From Meyerozyma guilliermondii (taxonomy: Eukaryota), in assembly GCA_051546255.1 (NCBI GenBank), contig CP128815.1:1426001-1490000 (forward strand): a stretch of DNA of 64,000 nucleotides. Direction: 5' to 3'. Made by a program: the position numbers and the translations under genes. Of the stretch, positions 12,509-45,783 are shown piece after piece; within the stretch, counting starts at the first letter, position 1; each line of letters starts with the position of its first letter. Under the pieces are notes generated by a model. That model was not told where the DNA came from. It did not search any database and worked only from the letters and a program-made list of their open reading frames with translations.

Positions 12509-13241
12509 CTAGTTGAAAAACTTTCTTGTTTTGGAAGGACCAAACAATTCCAATCTGATTCCAGGCAATGCCTCTTCCGACAACAACTTTAATCTCTCTT
12601 CCAACGTATTGTCCACCTCAATTTTACCGGAAACATTGGTGACAACAACACCACCAGCAATGTCCTTACTCAAGAAATCAGTTTCGCTGACCTCAATATC
12701 GACATTTTCAAACTTGGCCTTCTCCTTAAACCCCTTGGCAGCATCTTCAGCTGCCTCCTTGGCCAACTTGACATCAGCCTCTCTAACCTTGACTATGACC
12801 TTTTCCTCTAACAATGCCAACAACCCTTCCTCGATCAATTTGGCCAAAATGGGCTTGTACTCGCTCTTCTTGGCCGAGATAGCCTTCAATTTCTCCTTGG
12901 CAGCATCGAATATATCGTTCAATACTTCCTCTTTGGTGGCCAAAGCCCGCAACCGAGTCTTGTTGCCAATGGTGGACTTGGTGATTTGCTGAGCCAATGA
13001 TGCTTTCTTGACCTTCTGCTCGTAGTTACTATCGATGGCAGCGGTTTCTGACCTCACAATGGATGCTTTTTCAATTTCGTACTCCTCGTCGGCTTTCAAT
13101 TTTATCTCTTTGGCTTTCTCTTGGGCCTCCTTTTCAATGAACGCCTTCATCTTGCGGAGCTCCGCATTTACCTACAGTTAGTTACAGATCCCAAATACGC
13201 AAATCCATCTTAGAACTTACCTGATCGTCCGTTAATGACAT
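12509..13241 (-). CDS. VMA4: V-ATPase subunit E, 2 exons (13241-13221, 13171-12509)
   Basis: Exon 1 encodes MSLTDDQ; 49-nt intron 13220-13172 (GTAAGT...AACTAACTGTAG); continues [23 protein letters not shown]. Confidence 0.93.
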
Positions 13242-13374: not shown

Positions 13375-14279
13375 CTATACCATCTTGTCAAGGAAGGTTC
13401 TGGCCAACTCAACTCCTAAAAAGGTGGCAGCGTTTGCTGGGAAAGACCTGGCCAAAGCAGGACCCACACCAGGGAAGAATGCCTTGACCCCTCCACGCTT
13501 GTAGATGTTCTTTGTGGTTTGAACAATGGAAACACTGGTGTTCGAAGATTGCTGAGTCGACTTGATGGTGTCAATTGGGAACACCCCGAGCCACATGGAC
13601 ACACCGGCGCATCCACCAGCCATGGTGATGGCGAAAATGGACATATCTTCGCCTGGAGTCGACAATCTTTCCTTCAAGTATTCGTAGGTTGCAAAGTATA
13701 GAGCCGATCCTGGTCCGTCTCTTGCCAATGTTGCGGCTGAGCCTTTGAAAATAGATCTAATACCTCCGGTCTTGTACATTTCGGCAATCACTGAACCCAT
13801 CGACGACTTTTTGGCACTATCTTGAATCTGCATCATCACCTTGACTCTTTCAAACGGAGCAGCAACCAAAGTTGTAGGAATTGCCGAGATGAAACCAGCG
13901 GTACTTATGTCTTTGATAGTGAATTCTGCCGCAGTTTTACCAGTGGCAGATCCGACAATTCGTTTACCGACATCGTAACCCCAGAATGAAACAGCAAACA
14001 TGGGAGTCACTCCTAATAATGGGGGTAAGACTCCTCTGTAGAATCCAGTGGGTCCATCTTTGACCAATGTCTGCTTGATGCATTGTATGGAAGAATCGTA
14101 TAATCCGGTTTGAAGACGGACTTTTACCAAATCAAACGGGTGTCCAGTCAAAACGGCACTGTTGTTAGTTGATGAAAAAAACATTGATAGTGTATGAGCT
14201 CCACTTACCATATACCACCGAATCCACCAGCAGCAAACGATTTCACATTGTCCACCAAAGCACTGTCAACTTCTTCCAT
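13375..14279 (-). CDS. CRC1: Mitochondrial carnitine/acylcarnitine carrier, 2 exons (14279-14209, 14158-13375)
   Basis: Spliced N-terminus [40 protein letters not shown]; 50-nt intron GTAAGT...AACTAACAACAG; ARDGPGS and RSFPANAATF motifs. Confidence 0.92.
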
Positions 14280-29589: not shown

Positions 29590-31499
29590 ATGCAACCGAT
29601 AAAAAAGAGGAGAGCACCTAGGACTTCCCGGGCCTGTCAAAACTGTAGAAAACGCAAGATTAAATGCAAGGGCGAGCCTGTGTGCCAAGAGTGTGCTAAG
29701 TATGGCGAAGTTTGTATCTTTAGAGCAAAATATAGAGAATCTTCAAAGCCTAATGAACTCAACAAAAGTAATATAGGAGAGTAAGTAAACACAAATGAGC
29801 CCAAAAATAAGCATTTACTAACAAATCCAGCAACAATATCCTCAGCAAAGGCCCGCTAGAAATTCCTGACTACTTATCGGGCCAAAACGACACTACAGAA
29901 GCAGAATATTTTGGCTCGGCGAGTAACTTTTCATTCGTCAACCAATTGAATCATTTTCTACGACAGCTCGATGGGTCAAACTCCAACAATGATAAAGGGC
30001 TTGAGAGGTTTGGAGCCAAGCCCACGGTATTGGCAGATTCCTGGTCAAACGACGATTTCTCCTTGGATTCTATCAGCAACGAAACCATGAATGAACTCTT
30101 AGTTGCGTTTCTTGAAACCTGGACAATTCCCTGTCCTTTATTTGATGCCGACCAAGTGTTCACGTTGGCTTTTGACACTTGGAAAAATCCGTATAGCAAT
30201 GCCAACGACCAGGCGCTTCTCTACTTGATATTATCTCTTGGAGCAGCGACTTCCTACTTTGATATGGACGAAAGTAGTCCTAATGCCTTTCCTGTTGCCA
30301 GGGGCTTTTTCAGCTTGGCTCGCAATACCGTACCAACTATATGTTCCCAAGTGTCTTTTGAAGCCGTTAGAGTGGTGTTTTTCATGAGTTTGTGTGCTTG
30401 TTCTTTGGGTGACACTGCCCTTTCTTACCTCTATGGTGGTATTGCGGTGAGAATCCTGGTGGCTATTGGACTCCATAAAAATAGCATAGTGAAGAAAATG
30501 CCCCATTCTTTCGATTCAAGGCACCACAGAAGAGTATGGGTGTGTGTTTGGCAATTTGAGAAATACTGGAGCTTTTGTGTGGGTCGACCCAGCGGCTTAA
30601 GTGAGTATGTTGCAACTCCTCAGGTGAAGGAAGAAGACTTCGAGTACGCAGGATATGGAGAATCCAAATCGTTCAGAAAGACTTCTGAACATATGAAACT
30701 CCGGGTGAGTTTTGCGTCTTCGCTATCAAAAATTCATGCCGAATTGTACAACTCGAAGAACGAACTTTTGGCTATTTTGAGCAAGGTGGAGCGTTTTTCA
30801 ATTGAGATCGACCAAGCATATTTTAACAGCCGAGACAGACAATTGGTCCAAGCTAACGTCGATGATAGTGTGGACCAACTTGAAAGGTCAACGGTTATCG
30901 AATGGTTCTGGATCAGAATCTACTACCTTTATTTGAAACTCATTATCTTTCGTCCATTCTTGATCTTCAGTGCTTATCTTGGAAACGCCGCTACTAATGT
31001 TCCAGACTCAATCAAGAACAAAATCAAATCGGGATCCGATACCTGCGTTGATGTTGCAATTGAATTATCCAACTTTATAATTGAGTTGAACAGTAAGGTG
31101 CGTATGGCGCAACCTATAATCTTTATCAGCACTTATCTTGAAAGTGCTTCGACTGTTCTCCTATTCTATATTGTCAGCAACATCACTGATATCTCCGATG
31201 CATTGGCGAGAAAAATTTGGAATGTTTTGCATGCTACTCGAAACTTTCTTAATGGTTCATATGGAAGCTACCTCGATACCACGAAAATTTTGGCTCGAGA
31301 TGGTTTGGAGTCATTGCACAATTTACTAAAAAAGAGAAAGAACGATAAAAACACCACATTTCTTGACAAGATCATGAAGCCAGTCGTGATAGGCTCTCCA
31401 ATGACTCAAATCAATTCAATAGACTTACAAGACGACGCTGGTTTAGAAGCGGTGTGGGCGCAAACTTTGAACTGGATTAGTTATGCACCGCAAATGTGA
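29590..31499 (+). CDS. Zn(II)2Cys6 transcription factor with fungal TF middle domain, 2 exons (29590-29780, 29831-31499)
   Basis: ACQNCRKRKIKC..C..C......C in exon 1; 50-nt intron GTAAGT...TACTAACAAATCCAG joins in frame to EYFGSASNFSF...IGLH...RRVWVC...GRP. Confidence 0.9.
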
Positions 31500-41258: not shown

Positions 41259-43499
41259 ATGTCACAGTACGACCCTGTTCTGGACACATACAAGGAGGCG
41301 AGCAAACCTGGTACAGACGTAGAACAGCCTAAAATAGTGCACAATGAAAATTCAACACTACTCAACGGCCAATCATTTCCCCTAAACCGGGCCCAATTAC
41401 CGTCGAATTTGCCCAGCTTCTCAGAACAACGTCCCACCGCGTATGCTCCTCCGTTGATACCTCCAATCCAGCCACGGGAACCTTCTGAACAGCCAAATAC
41501 CTTCACCCCAACCACGGAAATGGTGATCGAAATGGCCAAAAATAGAGAGCAATTTGTTGCTGGAAAGGACCACCAAGCTGGTGTTGGAGCAACCGATCAT
41601 GTTATTGCCGGTGAGAGCGCTGGTCTGCTTCCATCACCACTTTCGACACAACGAGAGATTTCTGAACTGGTTACTTCAGTTCCTTCATCCGCTGGTATGC
41701 GAACCAGTCGAGTCGTCTATAACGTTCCACCCAAAACAGAACCTGAACCGCCTCGCAAAAAGGCAAAGAAAAAGCCCACAAACCAAGTTGCAACCTCCAA
41801 AAGTGCCCGGCATTTGAAAAAGGCCGATGGGGAACCCTTTTGGAGAAAAGACATTCAGTACGATTTCTTGCAAGCAGTTTTCGATGACCAGACGAAGGCA
41901 TTCACAAACTCGTTTCCACACTGCGAAATCTTGGCATCGTGTAATGAACCCAAACTCACGTTTTGTGATCTCTATATTCGTACGATTGCCGAGCTGGGTA
42001 AATGCTCCAAGATCTTGCGTGAGAGATTGCTTCGTAACCGAGAAATGGGCAAATCTGTGGCCAAGGTATGTCTTTTGGTAAACTCAGGAAGACTCAACAC
42101 CACCATAAATTTTGTTCCGGATATGCGCTCGCTTATGAGAACCTATCATTCGATTCCATCACTTCAGGCCGATCCTATATACGGAGGTTCCAAACCGTTG
42201 CAAGATACACCTCGTATCAAATCGATTTTGAAGGCGGTGACGGAAGTTGACCCTCCTTTGCGTTCATTGGATCATGTACTTCAATATCCACCAGCAAAGA
42301 AACCCAATGTGACTCCTACACAATTAATATTTTTCATGAGCAACACGTTTAAACCAATAAGGTTTCAACATGACCCTTCAGATCCCGCCGTAGAGCATCC
42401 AGCTGTCACCGCCTTTTTAGGTGAAGGAAACCGTTTCATGGAGTTTTTCATGAATTCAAAGATACATCCTGCCAATAGAGCAAAGCGGTTCTTATGGCTC
42501 ATGTATACATATATTGAGACAAGCTTCACGGAGGAAGAGTTGAAGCTTAATCCCTTCCATTCAAGCATAATTAATCCTATTGAGTTATTGGAGGATGGAC
42601 AAGTGGATGACTTTGACAAAGACACCGACTATGAGATCCAGTATTCTGAAAAAATGTACAGCACAAGACTCAAGTGCATTGCAGAAGAAGAGCACAATAC
42701 ACTACCCAAGAGAGGCAATAAGGCCAAAAAGTCTAATGTGGATGATTATGACGAATCCTTTGACGTCCATAGTCCAGACCCTCATGGGGACGATTTCGAA
42801 TATCATCATCCAGCCAAGAAACAAAAAGTTGCAGACCCTACTCCTGTTTCTACTCATGATCTCTTGAGCGATGATATTGACTACTCACAGTACACTCTTG
42901 GAGATGATTTGGTAGACGGCTTTGAAGGACCGGTTCCCGCACATTTACCCCAGATTCCAATCAAAGACTTGTGTGATATATACATGGCATACACAGACAG
43001 TTACCCCCGAGTTCCTCGAAGTTACACCTCGGCAGCTTCACAGCAGAATATAGCTGCCAAGTCAGCACCATACATACATCAAGCCAGTGAAGATTACAAG
43101 CTGACGAAAACCAGCTTTGAGGCGAGAAAAGCAGCTTTGAAAGAATGGATGAGAAAATATTTTGAGGCTAGAAAAGATAGTGGAAACCGTTTGGTCGGTA
43201 TAGAATGGGAACGTTTGCGGTACGATGTATTAAGTGGTGTTGAAGGTTTTATGTACCGTCACACGGCAAAGGTCTTGGAAGCACTTCAAAAGAGTGTTAA
43301 TAATTCCAATGAAGAAATCAAGATTCCCGAAATGGAATTTCTTCCAGTGTACGAGTTTGACAAGATTGGACAACAAGCAGATTATTTGTGCAAGGTGCTG
43401 TCGTTCTGTGAGGAGTTATACCCCAAAGTTGTTCCCGCACATGCCACAACCACTAAAATGACGTTTGATTTGGAAAATGAGGTATTGAAGTTAGAGTAG
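41259..43499 (+). CDS. IES1: INO80 complex subunit Ies1
   Basis: RHLKKADGEPFWRKDIQYDFL, RTYHSIPSLQ, LQDTPRIKSILK, RAKRFLWLMYTYIE; ATG at 41259. Confidence 0.85.
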   Translation: MSQYDPVLDTYKEASKPGTDVEQPKIVHNENSTLLNGQSFPLNRAQLPSNLPSFSEQRPTAYAPPLIPPIQPREPSEQPNTFTPTTEMVIEMAKNREQFVAGKDHQAGVGATDHVIAGESAGLLPSPLSTQREISELVTSVPSSAGMRTSRVVYNVPPKTEPEPPRKKAKKKPTNQVATSKSARHLKKADGEPFWRKDIQYDFLQAVFDDQTKAFTNSFPHCEILASCNEPKLTFCDLYIRTIAELGKCSKILRERLLRNREMGKSVAKVCLLVNSGRLNTTINFVPDMRSLMRTYHSIPSLQADPIYGGSKPLQDTPRIKSILKAVTEVDPPLRSLDHVLQYPPAKKPNVTPTQLIFFMSNTFKPIRFQHDPSDPAVEHPAVTAFLGEGNRFMEFFMNSKIHPANRAKRFLWLMYTYIETSFTEEELKLNPFHSSIINPIELLEDGQVDDFDKDTDYEIQYSEKMYSTRLKCIAEEEHNTLPKRGNKAKKSNVDDYDESFDVHSPDPHGDDFEYHHPAKKQKVADPTPVSTHDLLSDDIDYSQYTLGDDLVDGFEGPVPAHLPQIPIKDLCDIYMAYTDSYPRVPRSYTSAASQQNIAAKSAPYIHQASEDYKLTKTSFEARKAALKEWMRKYFEARKDSGNRLVGIEWERLRYDVLSGVEGFMYRHTAKVLEALQKSVNNSNEEIKIPEMEFLPVYEFDKIGQQADYLCKVLSFCEELYPKVVPAHATTTKMTFDLENEVLKLE

Positions 43500-43515: not shown

Positions 43516-44670
43516 TCATATCATGACATGAAACGACGTTTTAATTATAGTTTCGAGCGCAGCTACTACGCCGTGCTCTTCTGCTAGAGCGGAAAACAAC
43601 GACGATAAATCCATGGCCGTAGAATTGTTTGTAGCGATAAGCTTGAGGTCCGAGCCACAGGCACCAGTCGTATAGTCACTTAGTATGATATTCCAAACAA
43701 GTCTGATGGTATAGATGGAATTTTCAACTGGCACATTCAACTCGACGCTTTCAACGGTCCGAACTATGGCGTAAAGTCGAACATCGTTATCGATCTCGTG
43801 TGAATCCATAAGTGGTTTAAAGCGAGAGTGGGCGATAAACTTGGAGAACTTGCGTATTATCTCGTAGATTGTCTGAACTCTTTTTTGGAGGATACCGGAC
43901 AAAGACGCTAGACAGTGCATTAATATGTTGAGCTTGCATAGCACAAGGAAGTCGTGTTCTATCTTTTGGTGTATCGTGGGTGACAAGAGAGATAAGGTAA
44001 TTAGTGCAGATTTGCTGGTGATCTGTATGCTTGAAACAGAATTCAGAGACGTGAGATTTATCTTGAAAGGAACTTTGAACAAATTGGGCGATATTAAAGT
44101 GAAGATCAACGTCCTGGTGCCGTCATCGTTTGTAAGTGATTGTTGTTGGCGAACATCCAAGAACGGAGCAAAGTGACGCACCATCTTCAAGCGGTCTTTC
44201 CAGTCATCTGAGGGTAGAAAGCTGAAATTGGAAGATGGAATCATGGAAAGTTGGGCTTGTGACGTTGCTGGAGAGGCGTCCAGGGTCCGTTTACGAATCG
44301 TCTTTTTCACTTTTTTCTTAGCAGGTGGCTGTTTTTTTGAGCGCAAATAGTTCACTCTAATGTTGATTTCCTCCACATCCGACTTCAATTCAGAGCGCTT
44401 GATCAACAAAGAGTCGCGTAGCTTCTTGAGACGTAGTCGTTCTTGGTTCTCTTCTAAAAGGGCATTTAACAGTGCCTCAGGGTCGTCTGGATGCAGCTGA
44501 TCAGGACCAGATTCTGAGTCGTTAGATGCATTATGAAGTGTTATAGTTTTGCTTGGTGACTCCCTTTGCTCTGAATTGGTGGTATTTGGAAGGTTTATAT
44601 CCTCAAATGCGTTTTTTTTCGGCGAACCACCTAAAATATCATCTAGTGATAACAGTGGAAGTCTGCTCAT
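43516..44670 (-). CDS. Probable kinetochore CENP-P/Ctf19-like protein
   Basis: N-terminal coiled coil followed by an RWD-like region; C-terminus LVWNI...LFSALAEEHGVVAALETIIK resembles the CENP-P C-terminus; ATG at 44670. Confidence 0.5.
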   Translation of the reverse strand: MSRLPLLSLDDILGGSPKKNAFEDINLPNTTNSEQRESPSKTITLHNASNDSESGPDQLHPDDPEALLNALLEENQERLRLKKLRDSLLIKRSELKSDVEEINIRVNYLRSKKQPPAKKKVKKTIRKRTLDASPATSQAQLSMIPSSNFSFLPSDDWKDRLKMVRHFAPFLDVRQQQSLTNDDGTRTLIFTLISPNLFKVPFKINLTSLNSVSSIQITSKSALITLSLLSPTIHQKIEHDFLVLCKLNILMHCLASLSGILQKRVQTIYEIIRKFSKFIAHSRFKPLMDSHEIDNDVRLYAIVRTVESVELNVPVENSIYTIRLVWNIILSDYTTGACGSDLKLIATNNSTAMDLSSLFSALAEEHGVVAALETIIKTSFHVMI

Positions 44671-44861: not shown

Positions 44862-45254
44862 ATGGTTTCAGCGCCTGAACTAAAAAAAGTAAGTACGAAC
44901 GCTGGCGGATCGAAATTTATACTAACGACAGTACTTGGATCGAAAAATATCGGTGCATTTGAACGGATCTCGAAACGTAGTGGGAACTTTACGAGGATAT
45001 GATGTAAGTAACCAGATTGCAATCACTATAAAAACGTACTAACTTTAGGTTTTTTTGAACATTACGCTAGCAGACGCATTGGACGGTGAAACAGAGATAG
45101 GGACAGTGGTAAGTATCTTCTCAAAGGGCTTTTTGTATCGTGATACTAACGACAGGTTATACGAGGCAATTCGATCGTTTCTTTGGAGGTAAGTATTTTA
45201 TTCAGAGGTTTTTACGCACAAGAGCAACTAACACAGGCATTAGAACGAATTTAG
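44862..45254 (+). CDS. SMX2: Sm core protein G, 5 exons (44862-44888, 44932-45003, 45049-45108, 45156-45188, 45237-45254)
   Basis: Spliced product MVSAPELKKYLDRKISVHLNGSRNVVGTLRGYDVFLNITLADALDGETEIGTVVIRGNSIVSLEALERI; four GTAAGT...CTAAC..YAG introns; adjacent to GNA1 as in S. cerevisiae. Confidence 0.95.
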
Positions 45255-45306
45255 TAAGGAGGTAATCTATCATTTGAGTTTTGGCGCTTGTAGAATTTAC
45301 GTTTAT

Positions 45307-45783
45307 CTATTGCTTAAATCTTGTGCACATTTCCAGTCCAGCCTTGGAATAACCACATTTTTCATAGAACCCAACATTATGAGGTGAACAGTCCAAGATC
45401 ACCTTGTAGCATCCAATTGTCTTGGCTATATCGGTGAGCCTGGTAATCATGGCTCTGCCCAAGTTTTTCCCTTGTTCGGTGTTGGCAACTGCGATGTCTT
45501 CAATATGGCCCACTTTTCCACACAGATGGATGACTTTTTTCTCCACGAGAAGCATTCCCGTGGCCACCACCACTCCCTCAGCATTTGTGATGACGTGGGG
45601 TTTATAAATGTCAGGCAAACTCAGCCAATGGTTGTATACTTCGTCGAAGTTTTCAGCACTGATGTCCCCCACAGTGGTCAACACTTTGAGTGTCTCTATG
45701 TACAGATTTGAATAATCAGACTTCTCTACTGGACGGAAGTTGTATCCGTGAGGAAGCTCGGGAAGTTCGGAGGACTCTGTCAT
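45307..45783 (-). CDS. GNA1: Glucosamine-6-phosphate N-acetyltransferase
   Basis: LKVLTTVG, GHIEDIAV, QGKNLG, CYKVILDC, FYEKCG. Confidence 0.95.
   Translation of the reverse strand: MTESSELPELPHGYNFRPVEKSDYSNLYIETLKVLTTVGDISAENFDEVYNHWLSLPDIYKPHVITNAEGVVVATGMLLVEKKVIHLCGKVGHIEDIAVANTEQGKNLGRAMITRLTDIAKTIGCYKVILDCSPHNVGFYEKCGYSKAGLEMCTRFKQ

What the first reader, a model, noticed from the sequence alone, without database searches (positions are those of the whole stretch)
44862..45254. Hidden SmG gene split by four tiny phase-0 introns
Seen: a 69-codon SmG ORF, absent from the ORF track, is interrupted by introns of 43, 45, 47 and 48 nt. All begin GTAAGT and all fall between codons; coding exons are 27, 72, 60, 33 and 18 nt. 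Four introns in one small gene is exceptional for intron-poor budding yeasts, and S. cerevisiae SMX2 has none. Inference: a core spliceosome subunit whose own output depends strongly on splicing capacity could act as a feedback sensor, and any internal exon can be skipped without a frameshift.
Basis: partly seen in the sequence, partly recalled or inferred. Interest (0 to 1): 0.7.

Follow-up and report, generated by a model that had tools for sequence, protein, structure and literature searches.

The report
Yeast SmG gene keeping ancestral introns
An ordinary gene for a core splicing protein that still carries four very old introns, most of which its yeast relatives have lost; it is real and tidy, but neither hidden nor clearly a regulatory sensor.

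Summary
The gene model is right: five exons, four phase-0 introns (43, 45, 47, 48 nt), a 69-residue SmG. An NCBI Meyerozyma guilliermondii annotation already holds the identical protein. The surprises dissolve on comparison. Intron size (median 46 nt) and the GTAAGT donor (92 of 151 motifs) are this genome's norm. A five-intron and another four-intron gene occur in the same genome. Candida albicans SMX2 is in print with three introns, at sites 1, 3 and 4 here. Site 2 leaves read-through footprints in Suhomyces tanzawaensis and many filamentous ascomycetes. So all four positions and their phase are inherited; this yeast has kept the full set. Skipping any internal exon stays in frame but removes strands and RNA or ring contacts. 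The orthologous C. albicans introns are 94-100% spliced. What remains of interest is family-level: 8 of 16 Sm/Lsm genes keep introns, and in a C. albicans splicing mutant the intron-bearing Sm mRNAs rise most (post hoc; not so for Lsm genes). No RNA reads of this genome were available.

The parts
44862..44888 (+). Exon 1 coding part (aa 1-9, N-terminal helix)
44889..44931 (+). Intron 1, 43 nt, phase 0; site shared with ascomycetes and basidiomycetes; retention gives a frameshift and a stop after 46 codons
44932..45003 (+). Exon 2 (aa 10-33, two strands, Arg23)
45004..45048 (+). Intron 2, 45 nt, phase 0, in-frame stops; site shared with Suhomyces tanzawaensis and filamentous ascomycetes, absent from C. 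albicans
45049..45108 (+). Exon 3 (aa 34-53, Phe35 and Asn37; loop five residues shorter than in related yeasts)
45109..45155 (+). Intron 3, 47 nt, phase 0; site shared with C. albicans, filamentous ascomycetes and basidiomycetes
45156..45188 (+). Exon 4 (aa 54-64, Arg56 of the Sm2 motif, last strand)
45189..45236 (+). Intron 4, 48 nt, phase 0, no in-frame stop (retention would give an 85-aa in-frame product); site shared with other yeasts and filamentous ascomycetes
45237..45254 (+). Exon 5 coding part (aa 65-69 and stop)

Best explanation
This is the single SMX2/SmG gene of a CTG-clade yeast, most likely Meyerozyma guilliermondii or a very close relative. Its four introns are constitutive, near-consensus, short introns that are removed to give one mRNA and one 69-aa Sm ring subunit. 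All four sit at positions that were already present, in phase 0, in the ancestor of budding yeasts and filamentous ascomycetes (sites 1 and 3 also in basidiomycetes). Lineages have lost different subsets (Saccharomyces all; C. albicans site 2; Metschnikowia- and Sungouiella-like loci sites 2 and 3); this one has lost none. Shown: gene structure, identity, shared positions, genome background. Inferred: efficient splicing here (from the C. albicans orthologue), polarity as loss rather than gain, and the cause of retention, most likely slow loss in a small gene of short exons within a family that keeps introns unusually well.
For: Identical annotated protein; best PDB hits all SmG, E 2e-21, Lsm7 only 3e-7; only one SmG-like locus among 16 LSM matches in G000. 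In 80 metagenome SmG loci: phase-0 intron at site 1 in 57, site 3 in 30, site 4 in 10 (33, 18, 7 of 53 distinct proteins). L066 and L068 are 453 bp with 72, 84, 72-nt introns at sites 1, 3, 4, matching C. albicans SMX2 (453 bp, three introns, PMC7426172; lengths 72, 84, 72 in PMC11323467 supplement). Site 2: of 149 profile hits with the motif, 122 break right after RGYD, 114 of them into V-R/S/C/G as a GT donor would read, and 12 resume in frame; one is Suhomyces tanzawaensis (P0191), others are Fusarium, Candelina, Gyalolechia records. Genome background: 151 strict short-intron motifs, median 46 nt, 114 of 151 at 40-50 nt, 92 of 151 GTAAGT. C. albicans wild type at 30 C: mean retention 0.4% (site 1) and 1.2% (site 3) on 137-420 junction reads per replicate.
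Against: No RNA reads of this genome, so splicing efficiency is borrowed from C. albicans. Site 2 was seen in 0 of 80 DNA loci, but that scan's seed peptide spans site 2 and cannot find genes split there; site-2 evidence therefore rests on protein read-through footprints, not on DNA, and on a hit list enriched for such fragments (best 150 of 902). No species tree was built, so parallel gain at a G|GT proto-splice site is not formally excluded. Family-level retention (8 of 16 Sm/Lsm genes; P about 1e-6 to 5e-4 for backgrounds of 6-13.5%) suggests that something beyond drift keeps these introns.
Confidence: 0.82

Rival explanations
1. The introns are kept by selection as part of a splicing-coupled feedback on Sm ring supply: the cell senses spliceosome load on Sm pre-mRNAs and raises or trims Sm output, SmG with four introns being the most sensitive.
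For: 8 of 16 Sm/Lsm genes here hold 12 introns, 11 of them among the 151 strict motifs; C. albicans keeps introns in six of the same paralogues (SmF, SmD2, Lsm2, Lsm4, Lsm7, Lsm8). In the C. albicans prp19 mutant at 30 C, log2 changes are SMX2 1.32, SMD2 1.20, SMX3 1.05, SMB1 0.97 (with intron rows) against SME1 0.79, SMD3 0.57, SMD1 0.13 (none); exact p 0.029, post hoc. The authors note upregulated splicing genes as 'some degree of feedback'. Menadione leaves only unspliced SMX2 by RT-PCR.
Against: Held-out genes mostly failed: intron-bearing LSM2 0.39, LSM4 0.27, LSM7 -0.04, LSM8 -0.30 against intronless LSM3 0.27, LSM5 0.05 (p 0.6; all 13 genes p 0.22). Intronless SME1 and SMD3 rise too. 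Half of all genes change in that mutant. SMX2 retention reaches only about 2%, 11% and 19% in the mutant. Splice signals here are consensus, not weak. By plain logic, constitutive introns in a spliceosome gene give positive, not homeostatic, feedback (inference). Menadione also blocked other genes' splicing.
Confidence: 0.12
2. Phase-0 symmetry is kept so that exons can be skipped to make alternative SmG isoforms.
For: Skipping exon 2, 3 or 4 is in frame (45, 49, 58 aa). One Fusarium model (P0092) joins the exon-2 end to the exon-4 start, though it also carries an odd insertion and looks like a prediction error.
Against: Each internal exon carries one or more strands (model mean pLDDT 71) and a conserved contact: Arg23, Phe35/Asn37, Arg56, equivalent to the residues described in PMC4986888. 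Phase 0 is the state of these sites in all fungi examined, including genes with one intron where skipping is impossible. Four phase-0 introns have prior probability 0.03-0.06 at 40-50% phase 0 (40.2% in Yarrowia). Exon skipping was found in 4 of 88 alternatively spliced Yarrowia genes.
Confidence: 0.03
3. One or more introns, most plausibly intron 2, were gained recently in this lineage, for instance by reverse splicing into a spliceosome-associated transcript.
For: Site 2 absent from 80 of 80 DNA loci and from C. albicans; introns 1 and 3 end in the same 12 nt.
Against: The DNA scan is blind to site 2; footprints at exactly site 2 occur in another CTG-clade yeast and in over 100 filamentous-fungal ORFs. 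The shared ends are branch-point and acceptor consensus.
Confidence: 0.03

Closest known systems
Candida albicans SMX2 (C2_03880C_A), PMC7426172 and PMC11323467
   Same: Orthologous SmG gene of a CTG-clade yeast with phase-0 introns at sites 1, 3 and 4; spliced junctions supported by RNA-seq; essential-type Sm ring role.
   Different: Three introns of 72-84 nt with GTATGT donors; lacks site 2; protein 74 aa against 69 here.
SmG genes of filamentous ascomycetes and basidiomycetes (L017-L096, P0076-P0224)
   Same: Same four positions and phase; single ORFs show sites 1+2+3 (P0155, P0166, P0205) or 1+2+4 (P0218) together.
   Different: No locus examined showed all four at once, but neither search could have shown it; introns are longer and donors more varied.
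Conserved introns of the Sm/Lsm family (Veretnik et al. 2009, PMC2650416)
   Same: Describes unusually conserved intron positions in Sm/Lsm genes across eukaryotes, including SmG.
   Different: Positions are given in figures that are not held, so I could not check these four sites against it; CTG-clade yeasts are not discussed in the parts read.
Splicing autoregulation of SmB/SNRPB by a poison exon (recalled, no call) and of Rpl22 in S. cerevisiae (PMC4838235, search listing only)
   Same: A gene whose own splicing sets its level.
   Different: Those need a weak or alternative element that the product controls; no such element was found here.

Membership tests
SmG (snRNP core protein G) | LSM domain above Pfam cut-off | tested here: met
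   PF01423 58.5 bits against cut-off 23.4
SmG (snRNP core protein G) | Closest to SmG rather than Lsm7 or other paralogues | tested here: met
   Top ten PDB hits are SmG, E 2e-21 to 2e-7; Lsm7 3e-7; a separate Lsm7 gene exists (L009)
SmG (snRNP core protein G) | [quoted passage not shown] | tested here: met
   F35, N37, R56, R23
SmG (snRNP core protein G) | Helix plus five-strand Sm fold | tested here: met
   Model H5-10 and five strands, mean pLDDT 71, pTM 0.53; moderate confidence
SmG (snRNP core protein G) | Assembles in the Sm ring on U1, U2, U4, U5 | not testable with these tools
   Follows from orthology only
U2-type yeast spliceosomal introns | GT donor, ACTAAC branch point, YAG acceptor close to the branch | tested here: met
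   4 of 4
U2-type yeast spliceosomal introns | Removed from the mRNA | not testable with these tools
   No RNA reads of this genome; identical annotated protein and C. albicans junctions at three sites are indirect
Splicing-factor autoregulatory intron or poison exon | Weak or alternative splice element giving an unproductive isoform | tested here: not met
   All four donors and branch points are consensus; orthologous retention 0-6% in wild type at the two well-covered sites
Splicing-factor autoregulatory intron or poison exon | mRNA level responds to spliceosome state in an intron-dependent way | tested here: inconclusive
   C. albicans prp19 data: holds among 7 Sm genes (p 0.029, post hoc), not among 6 Lsm genes
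Splicing-factor autoregulatory intron or poison exon | Response lost in an intronless allele | not testable with these tools
   Needs a strain

The most novel reading that the evidence does not exclude
CTG-clade yeasts keep introns in Sm ring genes because these introns couple Sm mRNA supply to spliceosome state; SmG, with the whole ancestral set of four, is the most sensitive node, and its stop-free last intron lets a partly spliced message escape decay.
Probability: 0.12. Interest if true: 0.55.

Novelty: new member of a known kind. Interest (0 to 1): 0.18.

Why it matters
As it stands, a small point of intron history: an intron-poor yeast keeps all four ancestral ascomycete SmG introns, and ORF-based annotation will miss the gene. 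It is also a compact test object: a 393-nt gene with four 43-48 nt introns in a tractable yeast allows each intron to be removed singly to ask why Sm/Lsm genes keep introns when most genes have lost them. If the feedback reading were true it would give a reason for that retention.

Tried and rejected
RNA reads of this genome were not available, so junctions rest on indirect evidence. A search for short (30-36 aa) SmG fragments found nothing. The metagenome scan could not test site 2. The reversed-pattern controls of the genome pattern searches (57 against 50; 97 against 165; 28 against 93; 33 against 61) are not composition-matched; I relied on the 40-50 nt length peak and a simulated null instead, and some of the 151 motifs will be chance while longer or non-consensus introns are missed. 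The idea that intron presence predicts the rise in the prp19 mutant passed for the one held-out Sm gene and failed for five held-out Lsm genes; LSM1 and LSM6 were not looked up. A stop-free 3n last intron in 3 of 8 distinct loci is not beyond chance (p 0.06-0.11 on my rough prior). PMC8476143 and PMC4202332 do not mention SMX2 in the main text; PMC5880011 uses 'SM' for spliceosomal machinery and was not useful. Figures and supplements of PMC2650416 could not be seen and may already show these positions. Three look-ups of earlier scan findings returned nothing.

Full report
Observation. The + strand from 44862 to 45254 holds five coding exons of 27, 72, 60, 33 and 18 nt separated by introns of 43, 45, 47 and 48 nt. 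Each intron begins GTAAGT, has an ACTAAC branch point and ends in CAG or TAG; all lie between codons; the joined frame is 69 codons and a stop. A spliced aligner that I wrote, free in phase and length, recovered the same four introns. The window has 7 strict intron motifs against 0.06 on average in 100 simulated windows.

Identity. Exon 2 alone hits SmG chains first. A protein search returned an NCBI Meyerozyma guilliermondii protein, XXZ98329.1, whose 69 residues equal the joined frame; the exact sequence is held once in that collection. The genome (10.66 Mb, 8 contigs) is therefore most likely that species or a very close relative, and the gene is already annotated in at least one assembly, as a hypothetical protein. 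It scores 58.5 bits on Pfam LSM, its ten best PDB hits are SmG, and it keeps Arg23, Phe35, Asn37 and Arg56, the contacts described for yeast SmG (PMC4986888, passages). It is five residues shorter than related yeast SmG in a loop inside exon 3, away from any intron. It is the only SmG-like locus of 16 LSM matches in the genome.

Is the intron style unusual here? No. Two tight patterns gave 154 matches, 151 after removing three overlapping duplicates; median length 46 nt, 114 of 151 between 40 and 50 nt, 92 of 151 with GTAAGT, so four of four GTAAGT has probability 0.14. These lists omit long and non-consensus introns and include some chance matches. SmG is the only cluster of four in the strict list (128 singles, 8 pairs, one triple). 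I fetched 9 multi-motif regions: one gives a 485-aa glucanosyltransferase with four introns (phases 0, 0, 0, 2) and another a 136-aa COPI-associated protein with five introns including a 7-nt exon; both are my predicted models. Kuraishia capsulata has 2 four-intron genes among 812 intron-bearing ones (PMC3879985, passages). Four introns is thus rare but not unique.

Where do the introns come from? A metagenome scan returned 80 SmG loci (best 80 of 104 confirmed). Spliced alignment placed a phase-0 intron at site 1 in 57 of 80 (two more one codon-part away), at site 3 in 30, at site 4 in 10; 21 had none, several being transcripts or Saccharomyces-type genes; no other positions appeared. L066 and L068 have sites 1, 3 and 4 with lengths 72, 84, 72 and span 453 bp. 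C. albicans SMX2 is described as 453 bp with three introns (PMC7426172, passage), and its introns are 72, 84 and 72 nt (PMC11323467, supplement rows). Read-through footprints in annotated proteins agree: site 1 in Candidozyma models, site 3 in Spathaspora, site 4 in Clavispora, Sungouiella, Wilcoxina and Geopyxis. Site 2 was in 0 of 80 loci, but one seed peptide spans site 2 and the other spans site 1, so a gene with both cannot be found. I therefore searched with a profile of exon 2 only. Of the best 150 of 902 hits, 149 have the motif; 27 run on normally, 122 break right after it, 114 of these into the residues that a phase-0 GT donor spells, and 12 resume in frame. The list is enriched for such fragments by clustering, so the ratio is not a frequency. 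One hit is the Suhomyces tanzawaensis SmG model with a 35-residue insert at site 2. Single ORFs show sites 1, 2 and 3 together, or 1, 2 and 4. All four sites are therefore shared between budding yeasts and filamentous ascomycetes. Inheritance with patchy loss is the simplest reading (inference; no tree built), in keeping with loss outnumbering gain by two orders of magnitude in Saccharomycetaceae (PMC4202332, passages) and with the unusual conservation of Sm/Lsm introns (PMC2650416, parts 1-4 of 7 read; figures and supplements not seen).

Skipping and retention. Skipping exon 2, 3 or 4 gives 45, 49 or 58 residues in frame, but each exon carries at least one strand and a conserved contact, so the products should not fold or join the ring (inference). 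Retaining intron 1 or 2 gives early stops, intron 3 a frameshift that loses the Sm2 motif, intron 4 an in-frame 85-residue product. In C. albicans wild type at 30 C, mean retention is 0.4% at site 1 and 1.2% at site 3 in the deeper batch (4.9% at site 3 in the second batch); site 4 has too few reads (3-12); in the prp19 mutant at 30 C the values are about 2%, 11% and 19% (25 of 30 rows seen).

Feedback. Seven of the other 15 Sm/Lsm genes carry eight introns: SmF, SmD2, Lsm2, Lsm4, Lsm6, Lsm8 one each, Lsm7 two, three of the eight in phase 0 (names; names of the intronless paralogues are recalled). Eight of 16 is far above a 6% background (C. albicans figure), and C. albicans keeps introns in six of the same paralogues. 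In the prp19 mutant SMX2 mRNA is up 2.5-fold. Among seven Sm genes the four with intron rows rise more than the three without (p 0.029, noticed after looking); among six Lsm genes there is no such order (p 0.6), and over all 13 p is 0.22. Intronless SME1 and SMD3 rise as well, and half of all genes change in this mutant at 39 C (section 10). Menadione blocks SMX2 splicing but also that of other genes. This leaves a weak, testable hint of Sm-specific feedback, with the sign opposite to the simple 'less splicing, less SmG' model.

Literature. Eight searches found the three-intron C. albicans gene but no description of a four-intron yeast SmG or of Sm-intron feedback in yeasts; the library lacks most subscription papers.

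Verdict. Real, correctly described, ordinary in mechanism: a new member of a known kind. Interest 0.18.

Noticed in passing
L099:690-1324 (G000:C4, about 718,190-718,820, +): Predicted 136-aa COPI-associated (TVP15-like, name recalled) gene with five introns of 43-49 nt and exons as short as 7 and 35 nt; more intron-dense than SmG.
   Followed up: partly
L097 (G000:C2:364800-367500, -): Predicted 485-aa Glyco_hydro_72 glucanosyltransferase gene with four introns of 41-47 nt, phases 0, 0, 0, 2.
   Followed up: partly
L001, L002, L004, L008, L009, L010, L014: SmF, Lsm2, Lsm6, SmD2, Lsm7, Lsm4 and Lsm8 genes carry introns; with SmG the family holds 11 of the 151 strict intron motifs of the genome.
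   Followed up: yes
window 45049-45108: SmG loop in exon 3 is five residues shorter than in related yeasts (69 against 74 aa).
   Followed up: no
window 45237-45243: A second possible acceptor (TAG) lies 7 nt downstream of the intron 4 acceptor; its use would shift the frame of the last five codons.
   Followed up: no
window 45254-45307: SmG ends 52 nt from the stop of a convergent GNAT acetyltransferase gene (45307-45783, -), so the 3' ends of the two transcripts probably overlap.
   Followed up: no
window 13172-13220 (-), 14159-14208 (-), 29781-29830 (+): Three further consensus introns of 49-50 nt; the first two extend ORFs 12509-13150 and 13375-14211 upstream, the third lies where no ORF of 100 aa is listed.
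   Followed up: no
P0009, P0014, P0003, P0191, P0064: Several public yeast SmG models are wrong in the same way, reading through one of these introns.
   Followed up: partly
window 41259-43499 (+) and 43516-44670 (-): Neighbouring ORFs of 746 and 384 aa have no Pfam match at E 0.1.
   Followed up: no
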